Positions 30,001 to 36,000 of a DNA stretch of 64,000 nt are shown piece by piece (the stretch's first letter is position 1; the number at the start of each line of letters is the position of its first letter). Source of the DNA: an uncultured cyanobacterium (GTDB lineage Bacteria; Cyanobacteriota; Cyanobacteriia; Cyanobacteriales; CAWUOF01). The stretch covers positions 3,104,001-3,168,000 of the forward strand of contig CAVUSO010000001.1 in the NCBI GenBank assembly GCA_963744145.1, read 5' to 3'. The position numbers are program-made.

Positions 30001-33000
30001 CAGCAAGTAGCAGAACGTACCGCAGCATTACAACGCGCTAATCAAGAATTAGCTCGACTAGCAATATTAGATGGTTTAACTAAAATTGCTAATCGTCGTC
30101 GCTTTGATGACTATTTGATGAGAGAGTGGGAACGACATCTTCAGGAACAACAATCTCTAGCTTTAATTTTAATTGATATCGATTATTTCAAACGTTATAA
30201 TGATCACTATGGACATCAGGGTGGTGATGAATGTTTAATTCGAGTAGCTCAGACTCTTGCTCAAGTCCCCCAATATCCTCACGATTTAGTTGCCCGTTAT
30301 GGTGGTGAAGAATTTGCTGCAATTTTGCCTAATACTAATATCAATGGTGCCTTAATTGTCGCTGAGTCTATCCGACAAGCGATCGCTGCTCTTGCTATTC
30401 CCCACGCTCAATCGGAGGTGAAAGAATATGTTACCTTAAGTTTAGGTGTAGCGGCTATTATTCCCACTCTTGATCAACAACCAGAAGAGTTAATTGCCCA
30501 AGCTGATCAAGCTCTTTACCGTGCCAAACATCAAGGTCGCGATCGCGCGATCGCCTATAGAAATATAATTTGAGTCGAATTGAATAAAAAATAGCAGGAG
30601 TTAATCACTTAGAAATCAAGGAAAGTCAAGTTGATCTAAACCAACTGCTCGGACTCATTATAAGCATTATATTTACTGACCAACTAAAAAAATAAAGCTG
30701 TATATAAAGTGGCATAGATAATTGGGTAATATCGGGTCAGATCAATGCTCTGGTAAAAAAAATGTAGTATACTAAACTCAGAGTGATGTGAGATTTTGAG
30801 ACATGACCTAGTAAAGATTTACAATTAATATGCTAAAAAACATCAAGGTGCTTTTCCTACTACCTCGGTCATATTTTCTCAAGTCTAATACTCGTTTATT
30901 TGACAACTACCTCCATTGTTATGAAAAAATTGCTGAGATTTTTCTACTACCAAATTTTTGATATGCTGTCAGATGTTACAGTAGCCCACATTAGTTTTTT
31001 TATATCACATCGGCGTCAGCTGAATTTAAAAGGTGATACATTTAGCGATCGGATCACCTTCAGACGACTTTACCCATTATGTGCTGATTTTTGCATACTG
31101 ACAGATAAATATGAGGTGAGAAATTATGTAACCCAAAGAATTGGGAGCGAGTATCTAATTCCTTTACTCGCAATCACCGATGATGCAGAGAAAATAAATT
31201 TTGCCGCACTCCCGAATCAATTTGTGATGAAATCAAATCATGCTACTCAAAGAATCGAGCTGGTGTTTGATAAATCTAAAATCGAGGTAGAAGGTTTGCG
31301 AAAAATTGCCAGTGATTGGCTGAAGTATGATTTTTATAAAGCAACGCGGGAACAACATTATAAGGATATCCAGAGAAAAATTTTATTTGAAGAATTGCTG
31401 CTTGATGAAAATGGTAAGGTGCCCACCGACTACAAGTTCCATTGTTTCCGAAAAAATGGGGTGTTAAATCAATTTATTCAGGTAAATAGTAATCGCTTTG
31501 CTAACCATACTCTGGATTTTTTTGATTTGCAATGGAATAGATTGAATATTAAATTGCACTATCCTACATCATCTGTGCCCCCTGCTCGTCCCACCTTGTT
31601 AAACAAAATGTCGGAAATTGCCGCGATCCTTTCGGAGCAATTTAATTATATCCGGGTTGATTTATATTGTGTGAAAAACCAAATATTCTTTGGTGAATTA
31701 ACATTTACTCCTGGATGTGGATTGAAAAAAATGTATCCTCAGCAGGTTGATCGAGAATGGGGTATGCTGTTTGAGCCAGATGAGTTTTTCTATGGTGAGA
31801 TGAAGTGTAAGTAACTGGTCTGGGACTAATCCAGGAGGTGATCAGGTTAAAGTTTAGGCTGAAATTGATCACCTCTTAGCTGTACTATATTGCTTGATCT
31901 CCTATCCTCCTCAAGTGCTATAACCTATCACTACCATAGATTTCAGACTTGATTGAAGTCGAAATGCTCCATCGGTCAAAATTTTTTATCACCCCCTTGA
32001 CAAAGTTGTAGTATGTGTGTAATATATTAGTTATGGAAAGGACACCTAGACCTGGACAACTTAATCAGCAACTAGAAATATAAAATAATAAGTTAAAACT
32101 TGGAGGTGAGGACGATGGTGCATATTCGCTTTGAAGGACATTCCTACGATTTGACAGAAGCGGAACTAGGAATTACAGTCAACATGAACGAAACTACCAT
32201 TAAAGAAAGTCTCGCTCAACATCTTGATGTGAATCGCGATCGCTTATCAAAATACGTTTTGGATCGACGTCCTAGTGGTGATTTAATTATCCGTCCTGAA
32301 GCAGTTTATGGGTAATATAATTATCCTCTATACCCAGAGATAAAGCTTACAGATATTGACCAGATTTTTCACTTCGCGCCCTGACAAAAAAAGCTTACAT
32401 ACTAGCCGAATTGGTACAGGCACTTGAATTCTAAATCAAGCGATTGCAGGTTCAAATCCTGCGTATAAGCAAACAGCTTTTTTAACTTGCGTGAAGTGAT
32501 TTTTTTTGGGGTAAAGTGTCAATAATGGCAGTTAAGTCGCACCCTCATCGGTAAAGCTAATCTAGCTTGATCACCAACTTGTGCGGAGATCTATCATTTG
32601 TGTGCGAAAACTGCCTCCTGAAAACTCCACAATCAAGGGGAGGTAGTCAAAAATGAATATACTTGAACGCGATTTACGGATCGAAATGCTCAATAGTCTG
32701 TTGACTACACCACATCGAGAATTAGGTAAAGTCACAGAAATTCATAAATTGATCATCGAACTTGATCCGCTGTTCTATGGACATTTAGCAGTTTGGTATC
32801 AGCGTCATGGTGATGTACGGGATCATCAAGAAGTATTTTTAGCACATTTACTAACCAGTTCTCTATCTGAACATCGTGATGCTGGGTTTATGATGCTACA
32901 AGAATTGCCACCTTATCAGGTAGCTCGCATTGTAGACTTGATGAAACAGCAACGTCAAAAATTTCCCCGTTCTGCTCGCACTGCGGTGATCCGCTATCTC

Positions 33001-36000
33001 AAAACTCGGGAAAAAAATCCAGAGTTTTTCGATCGCGCTGCACTCCGGGGACGGAAAGCAATGAAGCATCTTTATGCGAGTTTGCATATTAAACCAAATG
33101 AGCGTGCTGATGCAATCCTATTTAAGGATAATCCTCCGGAAAATAGTCTTGCTTATGTAGTCAAGCAACTGGTAAAAGCTCCAACTCCCCAGCAACAAGC
33201 AGAAATAATTGTTGCTCATAATATCCCTTATCCCATTGCGATCGGTACAATTAAGCTATTGACACCAGTAGTCTTAGTAGCATTAATTAATTCCATGTCA
33301 CCCCAGGAGGTAATTAATAATCTCAAATCCTTAAAAGAACGGGGAGCAATGGATCATCCCGAAGTCAAAAAACTGATCGATAGCAAATTAGAACTAGCAG
33401 CAAAAAGCGATCGGGTATCTGCGTATAAAGCTCAAGTTGCTGGAAATCAAGTTCAATTAGATCCAGAAACCACAGCGAAGTTAGAACAGGTAACTAACGA
33501 ACAAGTCAAGAAACGAGGAACAATTAGAAAAGCTACTGCTTTATTGATCGACAAATCTGGTTCAATGGAACAAGCGATCGAAGTTGGTAAACATCTGGCT
33601 GCATTAATTTCGGGGATCACGATCGCTGAACTATTTGTCTATGCTTTTGATACAATGCCTTATGTAGTGCAAGCTAATGGTAAGGAAGTGAGTGATTGGG
33701 AAAAAGCTTTCCAACATATCAAAGCAGATGGAGGGACAAGTTGTGGTTGTACCTTAGAAATAATGCGACGGAAAAAGCAGTTGGTGGAACAGATTATCTT
33801 AGTCACAGATGAAGGTGAAAATACTCAACCTTATTTTGCGGAAGCTTATCATACCTATTCCCATGATTTGACCACCATAGCTGATGTGATCATTGTCAAA
33901 GTTGGGTCAATCACTAATTGGTTGGAAAATCAACTTAAGCAAAAACAAATCCCTTATGAAACTTTCACCTTTACCGGAGACTACTACTCGCTCCCCAATC
34001 TAGTTCCTTTAATCACTCGTCCTTCTCGACTAGACTTGTTAATGGAAATTATGGCTCTACCATTACCTGTACGAGATGATAAATAGATGTTTGGGTGAAA
34101 TTAATTTCACCCAACATTATTTTATGATTAGTGCTAGTTATCTCCCTTGGGGGTGCTATAATCATAATTATGGACAATCCTCGGTTAGTAAAAATTAGCA
34201 AATATCTGAGCAAACATCTCCGACATCAACCTGAGCAAATTGGACTGGTCCTAGGAGTAGGTGGTTGGGTTTCTGTCGAAGAACTTCTGAGTGCTTGTGA
34301 AAAACACTCCTTTCCTATTACCCGTTTAGAATTAGATGAAGTAGTTGTAAATAATGATAAAAAACGGTTTTCTTTTGATGCTACTAACACTCAGATTCGC
34401 GCTAACCAAGGTCATAGTATCGAAATTGATTTACAATTAGAGCCAGCTATACCTCCAGCTATATTGTATCATGGTACAAGTGATCAGGTCGTACCATCAA
34501 TTTTAGACCAAGGTATTGGCAAAATGTCGCGCCATCATGTACATTTATCTACAGAAATTTCGATCGCACGAAATGTAGGTGCAAGACACGGTCGTCCGGT
34601 TGTTTTCGCGGTAGATACAGCCAAAATGCACCAAGATGGTTATATATTTTATTGTTCTGACAATGGAGTTTGGTTAGTTGATCACGTACCTGCTGAATAT
34701 TTACAAAAGATTGATCTAATTTAGCAATAAATTTTAAAACTTTTTTCGCAACAAAAAGGATATAATTATGGGTTCAGGATCTTTTTGGAACGATGATTCT
34801 ACCGGACAAAATAATGTCCAAAGTCGAGGTTTACTCGCATCAGGTTGGAGACCATTATCACGACAGATTGATTTATCATTCCTGTTGCATTTAGCTACTA
34901 ACGATACCTGGGAATTAACACAAAAAACTCTAGATTTAGCGAGTGATATTGCAGATGCGATCGGACGTTCGAGATTATACTTGGTGGGCTAACATTTTAA
35001 ATATATTTTCCGAAAATACTCGCTATGAAATAGATGAATTTTGGAATTATATTACTCCCGAACCACCTGCACCTGATGAACAATTTAAAGATGTTTTAAG
35101 TATTGAAACTCCTACTGTGCAAATCGTTAGTCGTGATAGTATTCCGATTGATTATGTTTTGAATCGTCTCCGGGAAATTATTGTCATGAAAGTTCTAGAT
35201 TTATTAGGACGTCCAGAATTAATTACCCAAGACTATCTAGAACGACATTTCTATTATCCCGTCGAACGATTTCTCAATTGGGAAAGAATGGAAGCGATCG
35301 GTACAGTTTACGCTTATTGGTCACAGCATCAAGTTTGGTTGCAAATTAATAGTTCTGGAAGAGGAAGAAGACGTTATACTCTCATCGCTAAGGATATTGC
35401 ACCTTTAGTGAATAAATCAACCTATAATCTAGCAGTCATGTTGAGTGGTTATCAAAGTCGGGTTGGTCAGGTGCAAAGTCAGTTTCCGATTCGGACTTTT
35501 CCTAAAGATATTCAAAATTTTACTGATATTGTTCAACAAGCTATTATTGATCAAAATCAGTTAGCTGTGTTAGTACATGGAGATCCAGGAACAGGAAAAA
35601 CTGCATGGACTCAAGCAGTAGCAAAAGAAATTTTGATGCCCTTAGGATATGTTATTTTTATCTTAGATCATGATGCGGTCGAAAATTTTGTCCCCCAAAA
35701 TTATTTGCAACGGGTTTGTCTGATTATTAATGAAGCAGATAATTTAGCTCAAGATCGATCTACTGAAGTTGCTCAACGTAGTAGTAAAACTGAACATATT
35801 TTGAGTTTGCTAGATGGAACTTTATATCAGAGTGTAGTTGATGAAAATGGGTTACAATCAGAGCAAAGATTAGTAGTATTGATGACTTGTAATACTACAG
35901 AAAGGTTAGATCCAGCAGTTTTACGCAAGGGACGGGTTGATTTGATGTATGAATTTACCGAAAAGTTTATCTAGTTAAGATTGTAGGTAAGCATTATGCT

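What a model noticed while it worked through the whole genome (the two positions that open the first line are those of the whole stretch)
32007..34724. A divergent Ro60-like protein family with its own 'bracketed' Y-like RNAs, in an operon with Tpt1/KptA
g02912 (477 aa, 'hypothetical/vWA' in databases, no Pfam TROVE hit) is a remote Ro60/TROVE+vWA homologue. It is preceded by a tRNA-like RNA (M1, C1:3136392-3136491) closed by a conserved bracket stem. In other cyanobacteria the same gene is preceded by tandem sets of bracketed RNAs whose inner part mimics tRNA, permuted tRNA or 23S segments. Here the operon also holds a 66-aa TGS-like protein and an RNA 2'-phosphotransferase, and it starts with a TrcR-type operator.
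Evidence so far: No Pfam hit. A profile of 49 homologues hits Ro60 9NEN 5.3e-16, 1YVP 7e-13, TROVE 9L5Y 2e-12 and Rsr 2NVO 1.2e-6. hhalign to the canonical TROVE protein g07128: 97% probability, E=9.2e-11, 413 columns. The canonical TROVE genes are g04929 and g07128 only. The family is in 17 of 41 genomes, with 957 representatives at E<=0.001. M1: Rfam tRNA 38.9 bits at positions 4-67, no YrlA hit. Bracketed modules lie upstream in 14 of 19 other loci, 57 modules classified. 12 tRNA-like modules give 10 of 21 pairs compensatory. KptA PF01885 2e-52. Operator in calls 88 and 147. Only three bracketed modules occur in the whole genome.
(Added by a program. Inside this text positions count along the whole contig: contig position 3,104,001 is position 1 of the stretch shown here. 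"Call 12" and the like, gene names such as g00115 and contig names such as C1 are that model's own, and its searches are not shown. The text may have been shortened before it was handed on; [...] marks where a part breaks off. The agent that wrote the report below was given it as the finding of a first reader that could run no searches.)

Follow-up and report, generated by a model that had tools for sequence, protein, structure and literature searches.

The report
Ro60-like protein with its own RNAs
A cyanobacterial gene cluster encodes a distant relative of the Ro60 RNA-quality-control protein, preceded by tRNA-shaped RNAs held in a conserved stem and accompanied by ubiquitin-like tagging genes, which looks like an undescribed RNA-protein system switched on by translation stress.

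Summary
The 477-aa protein (32653-34086) has no Pfam TROVE hit. Its family profile still matches solved Ro60 (E 9.6e-18), and its high-confidence model retrieves only Ro60/Rsr/TROVE structures at full length.

A tRNA-like RNA (M1, 32369-32499) sits upstream, closed by a two-helix "bracket" with a conserved internal loop. In 44 related modules 96% of cells pair and 24 of 38 pairs show compensatory changes. Brackets lie upstream of the gene in 79 of 80 related loci. The bracketed tRNA-like RNA was found in 29 of 32 genomes with the protein and 1 of 20 without.

- The 66-aa protein ends in an invariant ...RPEAVYG (70 of 70), so it reads as ubiquitin-like.
- A 278-aa unknown protein and a ThiF/E1-like enzyme (35996-37653) belong to the conserved set. 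The set recurs in a Myxococcota genome and a viral contig, where a JAB peptidase is added.
- A second, minimal bracket (M2) lies in the gene's leader.

KptA and a frameshifted AAA gene are local insertions. The promoter carries an exact TrcR box (TGTAGTAT).

RNA binding, expression and the role of the tagging genes remain inferred.

The parts
31997..32025 (+). Promoter of the cassette. -35 TTGACA at 31997-32002, TrcR-type box TGTAGTAT at 32007-32014 in the spacer, -10 TAATAT at 32020-32025.
   Evidence: Consensus scan gives 10 of 12 matches and the sequence is read. TGTAGTAT is the footprinted TrcR site of the Anabaena trn operon (PMC10272220, passages and section 8 read). The box is exact within 200 nt upstream of the small gene in 8 of 70 regions, against 0.002 expected per 200 nt.
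32115..32315 (+). 66-aa protein, candidate ubiquitin-like protein ending ...RPEAVYG-stop.
   Evidence: ORF. Homologues lie upstream of the Ro60-like gene in 70 of 80 loci. The C-terminus PEAVYG-stop is identical in 70 of 70, and is AVFG-stop in the viral contig. No Pfam, NCBIfam or PADLOC family and no PDB profile hit. The fold was not tested.
32369..32499 (+). M1: bracketed tRNA-like RNA. Outer helix 32369-32379 pairs with 32489-32499. The internal loop is 5' CCUGAC and 3' AACUU. A second helix (AAAAAGCU with AGCUUUUU) follows. The tRNA-like core is 32396-32470.
   Evidence: ARAGORN, Rfam tRNA 38.9 bits, fold z = -4.38. Model R1 scores 130.6 bits, the top hit in the genome. Covariation in 44 homologous modules: 96% paired, 24 of 38 pairs compensatory.
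32500..32507 (+). Run of eight T directly after the outer helix of M1. This may be a terminator or attenuator that ends a small-gene plus M1 transcript.
   Evidence: Read in the sequence. It was not called by the terminator scan, whose loop limit is 8. This is inference.
32537..32586 (+). M2: minimal bracket in the leader of the Ro60-like gene. UCGCAC pairs with GUGCGG. The loop is CCUCAUC and AACUU. The inner hairpin is AGCU...AGCU. It ends 68 nt before the ATG.
   Evidence: Motif search. A bracket lies 60-130 nt before the start codon in 56 of 71 loci. The MFE structure agrees but is not better than shuffles, z = -0.55. The outer helix is only 6 pairs.
32653..34086 (+). 477-aa Ro60-like protein: helical TROVE-like domain of about 290 aa, then a vWA domain with a complete MIDAS (D300, S302, S304, T362, D386).
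34091..34114 (+). Ten-pair hairpin between the Ro60-like gene and KptA.
   Evidence: Terminator-like site.
34131..34724 (+). RNA 2'-phosphotransferase KptA/Tpt1 (homology starts at residue 14). It is the only copy in the genome and an accessory insertion in this cassette.
   Evidence: PF01885 2.6e-52. NCBIfam equivalog NF002014 scores 271 bits against a cut-off of 239. Single copy. Present downstream in 2 of 80 other loci.
34768..35974 (+). AAA+ ATPase gene split over two frames (orf74 at 34768-34992, 343-aa ORF at 34943-35974). It is a single ORF of about 400 aa in L011 and L028.
   Evidence: PF00004 2.5e-13. Both pieces match in one frame in L028. Present in 3 of 80 loci.
35996..36832 (+). 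278-aa conserved partner of unknown fold. H241, C258 (in GICLSG) and D263-F266-D267-L268 are invariant.
   Evidence: Found in 50 of 80 loci, including the Myxococcota and viral loci. 1020 homologues, all unnamed. Alignment A2. No family in Pfam, NCBIfam, PADLOC or PDB. The model is poor, pLDDT 60.6, and the best fold match is Z 5.3.
37018..37653 (+). 211-aa ThiF/E1-like adenylyltransferase.
   Evidence: PF00899 5e-27. Best PDB matches are Uba4 4e-13 and MccB 2.7e-12. It follows the 278-aa gene in 37 of 80 loci, and the flank ends before it in others.
15984..16369 (+). Candidate trcR gene (111 aa, 16034-16369) with the published TrcR auto-operator motif at 15984-16001 (17 of 18 bases).
   Evidence: RHH-type match is only weak, E 0.059. 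The motif is from PMC10272220.

Best explanation
The 477-aa protein is a divergent Ro60: a ring-type helical TROVE-like domain followed by a vWA/MIDAS domain. It is the centre of a conserved, horizontally mobile cassette with this order: ubiquitin-like 66-aa protein, one to several 'bracketed' structured RNAs, Ro60-like protein, a 278-aa protein with an invariant Cys and His, and a ThiF/E1-like enzyme.

The bracket is two helices around a conserved asymmetric internal loop (5' CCYAAY, 3' AACUU). I propose it is the binding site of the Ro60-like protein, as the conserved stem of Y RNAs is for Ro60. The variable inner domain is then the effector or mimic part of the RNA. In M1 it is a tRNA look-alike. 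Elsewhere it is a permuted tRNA with YrlA topology, a small hairpin, or in one case a 23S-like stretch.

The minimal bracket in the protein's own leader (M2) would let the protein regulate or mark its own mRNA. The cassette is transcribed from a promoter repressed by TrcR, so it is switched on under translation stress together with a TrcR-controlled tRNA array that itself ends in a bracketed RNA (M3).

The ubiquitin-like protein, the E1-like enzyme and the 278-aa protein form a C-terminal-glycine activation and transfer arm whose target is unknown. KptA and the broken AAA gene are strain-specific cargo that fit an RNA-repair theme.

Shown here: homology, fold, RNA structure, co-occurrence, gene order, operator sequence. 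Inferred: protein-bracket binding, autoregulation, Ubl activation, stress induction in this organism.
For: Protein:
- The family profile (55 sequences) hits Ro60 9NEN at 9.6e-18, 1YVP at 5.9e-14, phage TROVE 9L5Y at 5.1e-13 over profile positions 24-394, and Rsr 2NVO at 1e-7.
- The AF2 model has pLDDT 92 and pTM 0.79.
- Foldseek's 11 listed top rows (ranks 1-12) are all Ro60/Rsr/TROVE over 461-523 alignment columns (E 6.7e-12 to 1.4e-9, TM 0.51-0.65). The next hits are vWA-only at about 1e-5.
- hhalign to the genome's own canonical TROVE proteins gives 95.3% and 97.5%.
- The MIDAS residues are invariant.

RNA:
- In 44 modules 96% of cells pair, 24 of 38 pairs have compensatory changes, 0 of 500 shuffles reach this, and slid controls give 33-52%.
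- Outer-stem pairing of motif pairs is bimodal: 214 of 325 have 8 or more of 10 pairs.
- The loop bases are 98-99% conserved.

Linkage:
- 79 of 80 loci have at least one bracket upstream of the gene.
- ARAGORN finds same-strand tRNA-likes with mixed or odd anticodons in 52 of 60 loci.
- Model R1 at E<=1e-10 hits 29 of 32 genomes with the protein and 1 of 20 without. Two of the three misses have a broken gene.
- A leader bracket is present in 56 of 71 loci.

Cassette:
- The small protein is in 70 of 80 loci, the 278-aa protein in 50 of 80 and ThiF in 37 of 80.
- All four proteins plus brackets recur in a Myxococcota locus (L025) and in a high-GC viral contig (L088) at 37-60% identity. L088 also has a Prok-JAB gene between the 278-aa gene and ThiF.

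Regulation:
- An exact TGTAGTAT sits in the promoter spacer.
- The same box occurs twice at the promoter of a 10-tRNA array that ends in M3, next to a second trcR-like gene.
- TrcR biology is from PMC10272220.
Against: - No experiment or prediction shows that the protein binds the bracket. Complex prediction takes no RNA, and the one protein-protein job was never accepted.
- The bracket does not carry the GNCGAA(N)G motif that Chen et al. 2014 tie to Rsr binding.
- No module reaches the Rfam YrlA threshold: best 36.4 bits against 69.
- Pfam TROVE does not match.
- One locus (L028) has the gene with no bracket within 4 kb upstream.
- Orphan brackets exist away from the gene: M3 here, and hits on other contigs in G032, G044, G080 and G172.
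- M2 here is not thermodynamically distinct from shuffles.
- The Ubl fold is untested and the profile finds nothing in the PDB.
- The 278-aa protein has no recognisable fold.
- No JAB or E2 is found in the window or the 80 loci.
- A hairpin and a U-run inside the cluster may break it into several transcripts.
- Expression is not shown.
- Modules for one search were chosen by stem pairing, so its partner-shuffle control is partly circular.
Confidence: 0.6

Rival explanations
1. The brackets are processing or stability elements only. They would be long stems cut by a double-strand-specific or loop-specific RNase, like the stems that flank rRNAs, and would release the inner tRNA-like RNAs from a polycistronic transcript. 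The Ro60-like protein would then act on other RNAs and not bind the bracket.
For: Modules are tandem and each is closed by a long helix. M3 is the last unit of a genuine tRNA operon, where processing signals are expected. Orphan brackets exist without the protein gene nearby. The canonical Ro-binding motif is absent.
Against: The unpaired loop bases are the most conserved part of the RNA, at 98-99%. That points to sequence-specific protein recognition, not to a generic duplex. The RNA and the protein gene co-occur in 29 of 32 genomes against 1 of 20. A minimal bracket with almost no cargo sits in the protein's own leader in 56 of 71 loci, where there is nothing to release.
Confidence: 0.15
2. 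The cassette is a conflict (anti-phage or anti-toxin) system. The RNA array is a set of decoys or sensors that mimic tRNAs and rRNA pieces attacked by RNases. The Ro60-like ring detects damaged decoys, and the Ubl/E1/278-aa arm delivers the response.
For: - Distribution is patchy, 33 of 301 genomes and 18 of 134 genera, with 67-77% identity across families.
- The cassette occurs in Myxococcota and on a viral contig.
- The slot between the Ro60-like and 278-aa genes holds changing cargo typical of defence islands: Phd+MazF, Uma2, NucS-like, Schlafen AlbA_2, HNH, RNase T.
- Anticodons of the tRNA-likes vary freely, including stop and 2- or 4-base 'anticodons'.
- A JAB gene is present in L088.
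Against: There is no PADLOC hit for any core protein. No recognisable effector is conserved. TrcR control links the cassette to a physiological translation-stress regulon, not to infection. This rival overlaps the best explanation and differs only in purpose.
Confidence: 0.15
3. The tRNA-like units are real, spare tRNAs of a stress tRNA array, and the neighbouring protein is unrelated to them.
For: Rfam tRNA scores are above threshold: 38.9 bits here and up to 50.4 in L008. ARAGORN of 214 modules tRNA. TrcR does control a true tRNA array.
Against: - All modules share one acceptor-like stem (CAUAC with GUAUG, 5 pairs) whatever the anticodon.
- M1 has an 8-base anticodon loop and matches only tRNA model positions 4-67.
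- 'Anticodons' include stop, 2-base and 4-base forms.
- The acceptor end continues into two further conserved helices.
Confidence: 0.03

Closest known systems
Bacterial Ro60 (Rsr) with YrlA/Y RNAs (Chen et al. 2014, PMC4201824; abstract, section 6 and methods passages read)
   Same: The protein is a helical TROVE-type domain plus vWA with MIDAS. The non-coding RNAs are encoded within a few kb on the same strand and carry a tRNA-like domain joined to a conserved stem. More than one RNA can occur per locus. The system is also found in phages and sits in an RNA-repair context (KptA here; RtcB in Salmonella, from recall).
   Different: - Sequence is too far from TROVE for Pfam, and the protein is about 60 aa shorter.
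- The stem motif differs: CCYAAY/AACUU loop against GNCGAA(N)G.
- In M1 the stem extends the acceptor end of a normally ordered tRNA shape instead of replacing the anticodon arm.
- Arrays reach 7 modules with several kinds of inner domain.
- A leader copy sits before the protein gene.
- The system is linked to Ubl, E1-like and 278-aa genes.
- The genome also keeps two canonical TROVE genes, with no Rfam match at E<=0.001 in the roughly 3.2 kb held around each.
Prokaryotic ubiquitin-like systems (ThiS/MoaD-ThiF/MoeB sulfur carriers; Ubl-E1-E2-JAB operons such as Bil/Bub; named from recall and from the listings)
   Same: A small protein ends in Gly, next to a ThiF-family adenylation enzyme. A JAB peptidase is present in one relative (L088).
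   Different: The C-terminus is YG/FG, not GG. The E1-like enzyme is only 211 aa, with no recognisable catalytic-Cys or rhodanese domain. No recognisable E2 is present. The link to a Ro60-like protein and structured RNAs was not found in print.
TrcR regulon and the trn tRNA array of Anabaena PCC 7120 (PMC10272220, PMC8421152)
   Same: A TGTAGTAT box lies at or near the -10 region. A TrcR-like RHH gene with the published auto-operator and an HNH neighbour lies in the window. A tRNA array with the same boxes is present in this genome.
   Different: Neither paper mentions a Ro60-like or vWA gene or bracketed RNAs. The term search of PMC8421152 found none, and the regulon table of PMC10272220 lists none.

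Membership tests
Ro60 / TROVE (Pfam PF05731) | Match to the Pfam TROVE model | tested here: not met
   No TROVE hit at E<=1. The same model finds the two canonical genes of this genome.
Ro60 / TROVE (Pfam PF05731) | Sequence homology to solved Ro60/Rsr beyond the vWA domain | tested here: met
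   Profile hits 9NEN 9.6e-18, 1YVP 5.9e-14 (profile 104-419) and 9L5Y 5.1e-13 (profile 24-394). hhalign gives 95-97% over 412-416 columns.
Ro60 / TROVE (Pfam PF05731) | Fold: alpha-helical repeat domain followed by a vWA domain with MIDAS | tested here: met
   Model pLDDT 92. The 11 listed top Foldseek rows (ranks 1-12) are all Ro60/Rsr/TROVE at full length. D300, S302, S304 and D386 are invariant and T362 is at least 90% conserved. Ring closure was not measured.
Ro60 / TROVE (Pfam PF05731) | Binds a Y RNA stem and misfolded RNA ends | not testable with these tools
   Inferred from adjacency and co-occurrence only.
YrlA (Rfam RF02553) | Score at or above the gathering threshold of 69 bits | tested here: not met
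   M1 has no hit at E<=10. M3 scores 23.6 bits. The best module in L008 scores 36.4 bits.
YrlA (Rfam RF02553) | tRNA-like T and D arms | tested here: met
   Rfam tRNA 38.9 bits. The D, anticodon and T helices covary.
YrlA (Rfam RF02553) | GNCGAA(N)G motif near the 5' end, linked to Rsr binding | tested here: not met
   The bracket consensus is 5' GCGCCCUAAY and 3' RACUUGCGC. The motif definition is from PMC4201824 section 6.
YrlA (Rfam RF02553) | Protein-binding stem replaces the anticodon arm and the acceptor stem is closed by a loop | tested here: not met
   In M1 the bracket continues from the acceptor-like stem and an anticodon arm is present. M3 and other 'permuted' modules do show the YrlA order by inspection.
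tRNA | Seven-pair acceptor stem and seven-base anticodon loop usable for decoding | tested here: not met
   The match covers model positions 4-67 only. The 'anticodon' has four bases. The acceptor-like stem has five pairs and is identical across modules.
Ubiquitin-like protein with E1-like activator | ThiF-family adenylation domain in the cassette | tested here: met
   PF00899 5e-27. PDB matches Uba4 4e-13 and MccB 2.7e-12.
Ubiquitin-like protein with E1-like activator | Small protein ending in a conserved C-terminal glycine | tested here: met
   PEAVYG-stop in 70 of 70 homologues. AVFG-stop in L088.
Ubiquitin-like protein with E1-like activator | Beta-grasp fold of the small protein | tested here: inconclusive
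   No PDB profile hit and no Pfam hit.
Ubiquitin-like protein with E1-like activator | E2-like or JAB partner | tested here: inconclusive
   JAB is found only in L088 (PF14464 1e-10). None is found by tblastn in the 80 loci or this genome. The 278-aa protein has an invariant His and Cys but no recognisable fold.
Tpt1/KptA RNA 2'-phosphotransferase | Match above the curated cut-offs | tested here: met
   PF01885 scores 177.8 bits against 26. NF002014 scores 271 bits against 239.
TrcR regulon | TrcR box (TGTAGTAT-like) at or near the -10 region | tested here: met
   Exact box at 32007-32014, 5 nt upstream of the -10 hexamer. The site definition is from PMC10272220.
TrcR regulon | TrcR present and repressing this promoter | tested here: inconclusive
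   Two 111-aa ORFs sit behind the published auto-operator with 17 of 18 bases matching. The RHH match is only weak. I held no reference TrcR sequence and there is no expression data.

The most novel reading that the evidence does not exclude
This would be a new kind of ribonucleoprotein system. A Ro60-like ring is loaded onto an array of RNAs that mimic parts of the translation apparatus (tRNAs, permuted tRNAs, rRNA pieces). It is physically and genetically coupled to a minimal ubiquitin-like conjugation pathway: Ubl, E1-like enzyme, a Cys-bearing 278-aa protein, and sometimes JAB. Under translation stress (TrcR derepression) the RNP would bring the tagging machinery to ribosomes, tRNA-binding factors or damaged RNAs. 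This would be a bacterial link between RNA quality control and Ubl tagging. The embedded L7/L12 and EF-Ts paralogues in related loci fit a target in the elongation machinery.
Probability: 0.25. Interest if true: 0.92.

Novelty: new variant of a known kind. Interest (0 to 1): 0.8.

Why it matters
Ro60 and Y RNAs are a long-studied but poorly understood RNA-surveillance particle. In bacteria only the TROVE-annotated proteins and YrlA-type RNAs have been catalogued. Here a second family, invisible to Pfam, has 957 cluster representatives. It comes with its own RNA family, which has a different recognition motif, modular 'cargo' domains and a copy in the protein's own leader.

That gives a natural experiment on how Ro-type rings read RNA. 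The conserved coupling to a ubiquitin-like protein and an E1-like enzyme, and the control by the translation-stress repressor TrcR, point to a testable function in stress-time handling of tRNA or ribosomes. They also tie the cyanobacterial 'cryptic' tRNA arrays to an RNP.

Tried and rejected
- **RNA-seq:** The look-up of sequencing runs (kind rna) on 32000-37700 listed no RNA holder.
- **Complex prediction** (Ro60-like family alignment with the 278-aa family alignment): never accepted. The queue was full, and the job was not sent on. There is no result of any kind.
- **The 278-aa protein:** the AF2 model was poor, pLDDT 60.6. The VIA-align wide search gave nothing above Z 5.3, and the N-terminal barrel resembled TRAM domains only at Z 4.0-4.8. 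The PDB profile search found nothing below E 0.4. The Atlas gave no usable hit.
- **The 66-aa protein:** the Atlas returned only unnamed clusters. The PDB profile found nothing.
- **PADLOC and NCBIfam:** no family for the three unknown core proteins.
- **Viral scan with the family alignment:** The single-protein scan found one contig.
- **First genome-wide bracket regex** (3 mismatches): too loose, with hundreds of chance pairs. It was replaced by a degenerate motif and a covariance model.
- **Inner-domain blastn against this genome:** found only short tRNA matches. The '23S mimic' claim rests on one module.
- **JAB:** sought by tblastn with the L088 protein and not found in the 80 loci or the genome.
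- **Burroughs and Aravind 2016** (RNA repair systems): could not be opened by DOI or by a recalled PMC id. It may bear on prior description of Ro-linked operons.
- **The search of earlier findings:** returned nothing.

Full report
**What is in the window**

On the + strand between 31997 and 37653 lie, in order:
- a near-consensus promoter, TTGACA-17-TAATAT, with TGTAGTAT in its spacer;
- a 66-aa ORF at 32115-32315;
- a tRNA-like sequence at 32396-32470;
- a 477-aa ORF at 32653-34086;
- KptA at 34131-34724;
- an AAA+ gene split over two frames at 34768-35974;
- a 278-aa ORF at 35996-36832;
- a 211-aa ThiF-family ORF at 37018-37653.

**The 477-aa protein is a divergent Ro60**

Pfam gives only sub-threshold vWA hits and no TROVE hit. 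NCBIfam and PADLOC give nothing.

The family is large. There are 3135 proteins at E<=0.001 among the 8000 candidates scored; the 120 listed are all 71% or more identical and are named hypothetical or vWA. At the 50% identity level there are 957 representatives.

A profile of 55 diverse members (A1) has an invariant MIDAS: D300, S302, S304 and D386, with T362 at least 90% conserved. It matches the following solved structures:
- human Ro60 9NEN, E 9.6e-18
- Xenopus Ro60 1YVP, E 5.9e-14
- TROVE protein 9L5Y, E 5.1e-13, over profile positions 24-394
- Deinococcus Rsr 2NVO, E 1e-7

The AlphaFold2 model is confident, with pLDDT 92 and pTM 0.79. It shows about 290 residues of stacked helices followed by an alpha/beta vWA domain. 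Foldseek's 11 listed top rows (ranks 1-12) are all Ro60, Rsr or TROVE structures, aligned over 461-523 columns (E 6.7e-12 to 1.4e-9, TM 0.51-0.65). After them come vWA-only matches near 1e-5.

The genome also has two canonical TROVE genes. hhalign of A1 against them gives 95.3% (E 2e-8) and 97.5% (E 8.1e-12). Homology to Ro60 is therefore well supported. Membership of the Pfam family as defined is not.

**The RNA**

M1 (32369-32499) folds into four parts:
- an 11-pair outer helix;
- an asymmetric internal loop;
- a second helix;
- a tRNA cloverleaf with a five-pair acceptor-like stem and an eight-base anticodon loop.

Eighty related loci were fetched from genome contigs. The small ORF marks the upstream edge in 70 of them. 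The space between it and the Ro60-like gene varies from 334 nt here to 3608 nt.

Two 10-base motifs recur in that space, 5' GCGCCCUAAC and 3' UAACUUGCGC. When each 5' motif is paired with the next 3' motif, the number of complementary positions in the 10-pair outer helix is bimodal. Of 325 pairs, 214 have 8-10 pairs and the rest have 1-7. This gives 1 to 7 modules per locus (2 or more in 69 of the 70).

Of the 10 loci without a small-ORF hit, 9 still have a bracket upstream of the gene. L028 has none within 4 kb.

An alignment of 44 non-redundant tRNA-like modules (A3) supports six helices:
- 96.0% of cells pair.
- 24 of 38 pairs have changes on both sides.
- 0 of 500 shuffles reach any of the five measures.
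- Sliding the partners gives 33-52% paired.

The unpaired loop bases (5' CC-Y-A-A-Y, 3' A-A-C-U-U) are the most conserved positions over 169 distinct brackets. The modules were chosen by stem pairing, so its partner-shuffle control is partly circular.

**Kinds of inner domain**

- ARAGORN of the 214 modules tRNA. The 'anticodons' are a mix that includes stop, two-base and four-base forms (where 52 of 60 loci have same-strand tRNA-likes).
- Others carry a T arm, a closed acceptor hairpin and a D arm in the permuted order typical of YrlA. These give sub-threshold YrlA and tmRNA-piece hits: 36.4, 33.4 and 28.2 bits in L008, and 23.6 bits for M3.
- Many are minimal hairpins.
- One module (L013) has a 24 of 26 match to this genome's 23S rRNA. 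That is all I could verify of the '23S segment' class.

**Linkage of RNA and protein**

A covariance model of the bracketed tRNA-like module (R1) scores M1 at 130.6 bits. In this genome the next best hits are ordinary tRNAs and M3, at 47.7 bits or less.

The protein was found in 33 of 301 sampled genomes of the phylum, 18 of 134 genera, G000 included. I then searched the other 32 genomes with the protein and 20 listed genomes without it, using R1 at E<=1e-10:
- 29 of 32 genomes with the protein had a hit.
- 1 of 20 genomes without it had a hit.
- Of the three misses, G206 and G260 have a truncated or interrupted gene, and in G190 the gene starts about 3.5 kb from one end of its contig.
- Most hits are on the gene's contig and strand, 0.3-3.3 kb upstream.

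Related genomes are not independent, so I attach no probability to this.

**A leader bracket**

In 56 of 71 loci a bracket ends 60-130 nt before the start codon of the Ro60-like gene. It is usually of the minimal kind. In the window this is M2 (32537-32586). Its predicted fold agrees with the bracket but is no better than shuffles, z = -0.55, so it rests on comparative evidence.

**The rest of the cassette**

- *The 66-aa protein.* It ends ...RPEAVYG-stop in all 70 homologues.
- *The 278-aa protein.* It is found downstream in 50 of 80 loci. The ThiF-like protein follows it in 37 of 80; in the others the 4-kb flank ends first.
- *The ThiF-like protein.* It matches PF00899 (5e-27) and the adenylation domains of Uba4, MccB, SUMO E1, ThiF and TcdA.
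- *Features of the 278-aa protein.* It has 1020 unnamed homologues. H241, C258 and a DxxFDL motif are invariant. No family or fold could be assigned.
- *Distant relatives.* The same four proteins with brackets occur in a Myxococcota locus (L025, 60% identity) and in a 97.5-kb IMG/VR contig (L088, 37-43% identity). In L088 the RNAs lie upstream of the small gene, and a Prok-JAB gene sits between the 278-aa and ThiF genes.

A small protein with a C-terminal Gly, an E1-like enzyme and, in one relative, a JAB peptidase are the hallmarks of prokaryotic ubiquitin-like systems. I know this family from recall and from the paper listings. I therefore read the '66-aa TGS-like protein' as a ubiquitin-like protein. 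Its fold was not tested.

**What varies**

Other loci place different genes between the RNAs and the Ro60-like gene, or between that gene and the 278-aa gene:
- unknown ORFs of 241 aa (44 loci) and 153 aa (30 loci)
- a ribosomal L7/L12 paralogue (14 loci)
- an EF-Ts paralogue (2 loci)
- a second vWA protein (10 loci)
- Phd plus MazF
- Uma2
- a NucS-like protein
- Schlafen AlbA_2
- HNH
- RNase T

In the window this slot holds two genes:
- KptA, the genome's only copy, found downstream in 2 of 80 other loci.
- An AAA+ gene that is one ORF in L011 and L028 but is split between frames here.

A ten-pair hairpin follows the Ro60-like gene. A run of eight T follows M1. The cluster may therefore be read as more than one transcript.

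**Regulation**

TGTAGTAT at 32007-32014 equals the footprinted TrcR site of the Anabaena trn tRNA operon (PMC10272220, passages and section 8 read). The box is exact within 200 nt upstream of the small gene in 8 of 70 regions, against 0.002 expected. In many loci further RNA modules lie upstream of the small gene, so the promoter there is further away.

The window also holds a 111-aa ORF (16034-16369) behind the published TrcR auto-operator (17 of 18 bases), with an HNH gene beside it as in Anabaena.

A second copy of that ORF lies at C1:5728168-5728503, beside a ten-tRNA array. The array's promoter has TTGACA and two (T)GTAGTAT boxes, and its last element is the third bracket, M3. So both bracket-bearing transcription units of this genome carry TrcR boxes.

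In Anabaena the TrcR regulon is derepressed by translation stress and includes RtcB. That fits an RNA-surveillance or repair role, but nothing was measured in this organism.

**Comparison with what is known**

Chen et al. 2014 found YrlA RNAs by searching within 4 kb of TROVE-annotated proteins. They tie Rsr binding to a GNCGAA(N)G motif. The present family is not TROVE-annotated, its RNAs fail the Rfam YrlA threshold, and its bracket motif is different.

No paper in the searched library links Ro60 or TROVE with ThiF, E1 or ubiquitin-like genes, or describes bracketed RNAs next to vWA genes in cyanobacteria:
- Searches found none.
- The two trn/TrcR papers contain no such terms or genes.
- I could not open Burroughs and Aravind 2016, which may describe related operons.

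**Verdict**

The best reading is a new variant of the Ro60/Y-RNA particle with its own RNA family and an attached ubiquitin-like module, under TrcR control. Protein-RNA binding, expression and the chemistry of the Ubl arm are inferred and need experiments.

Noticed in passing
G000:C1:5725003-5728503 (locus L087 5004-8504): A ten-tRNA array on the - strand (L087 5313-7613) runs from a promoter with TTGACA and two (T)GTAGTAT boxes. It ends, after a long hairpin, in the orphan bracketed YrlA-like RNA M3 (L087 5004-5156). A second trcR-like gene with the published auto-operator lies divergently at L087 8169-8504.
   Followed up: partly
window 15113-16369: A trcR-like 111-aa ORF (16034-16369) sits behind the motif ATACTACACTTGTATTAT (15984-16001). 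An HNH endonuclease gene lies on the other strand (15113-15643), the same pairing as reported around trcR in Anabaena.
   Followed up: partly
window 34768-35974: The AAA+ ATPase gene appears frameshifted. Its first 74 codons and the remaining 343 are in different frames and overlap at 34943-34992. L011 and L028 have one ORF of about 400 aa.
   Followed up: partly
L033:3262-3654, L021:5603-6325 and similar: Paralogues of ribosomal protein L7/L12 (14 loci, PF00542 3.4e-23) and of EF-Ts (2 loci, PF00889 9.3e-32) are embedded in the cassette in other cyanobacteria. Both proteins bind EF-Tu, as do tRNAs.
   Followed up: no
L054:2321-3046, L056:3328-3789, L072:7305-7646: Three further conserved ORFs without any family lie inside the cassette in other genomes but are absent from the window: 241 aa in 44 loci, 153 aa in 30 loci and 113 aa in 25 loci.
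   Followed up: no
L088 (IMG/VR contig, 97.5 kb) 3400-9051: A high-GC viral contig carries the whole cassette, with the bracket RNAs upstream of the small gene and a Prok-JAB gene between the 278-aa and ThiF genes. I did not check that the contig is truly viral.
   Followed up: partly
G000:C1:4684632-4684649: A perfect palindrome, ATACTACAATTGTAGTAT, made of two TrcR-type boxes, lies between divergent genes.
   Followed up: no
L009; G095 (two contigs): Some genomes carry two full copies of the Ro60-like gene. In L009 they are in tandem with a second vWA gene between them.
   Followed up: no
window 30900-31814: The gene just upstream of the cassette is a TupA-like ATP-grasp protein (PF14305 3.5e-48). 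It has no counterpart in any of the 80 related loci, so it marks the edge of the cassette.
   Followed up: yes
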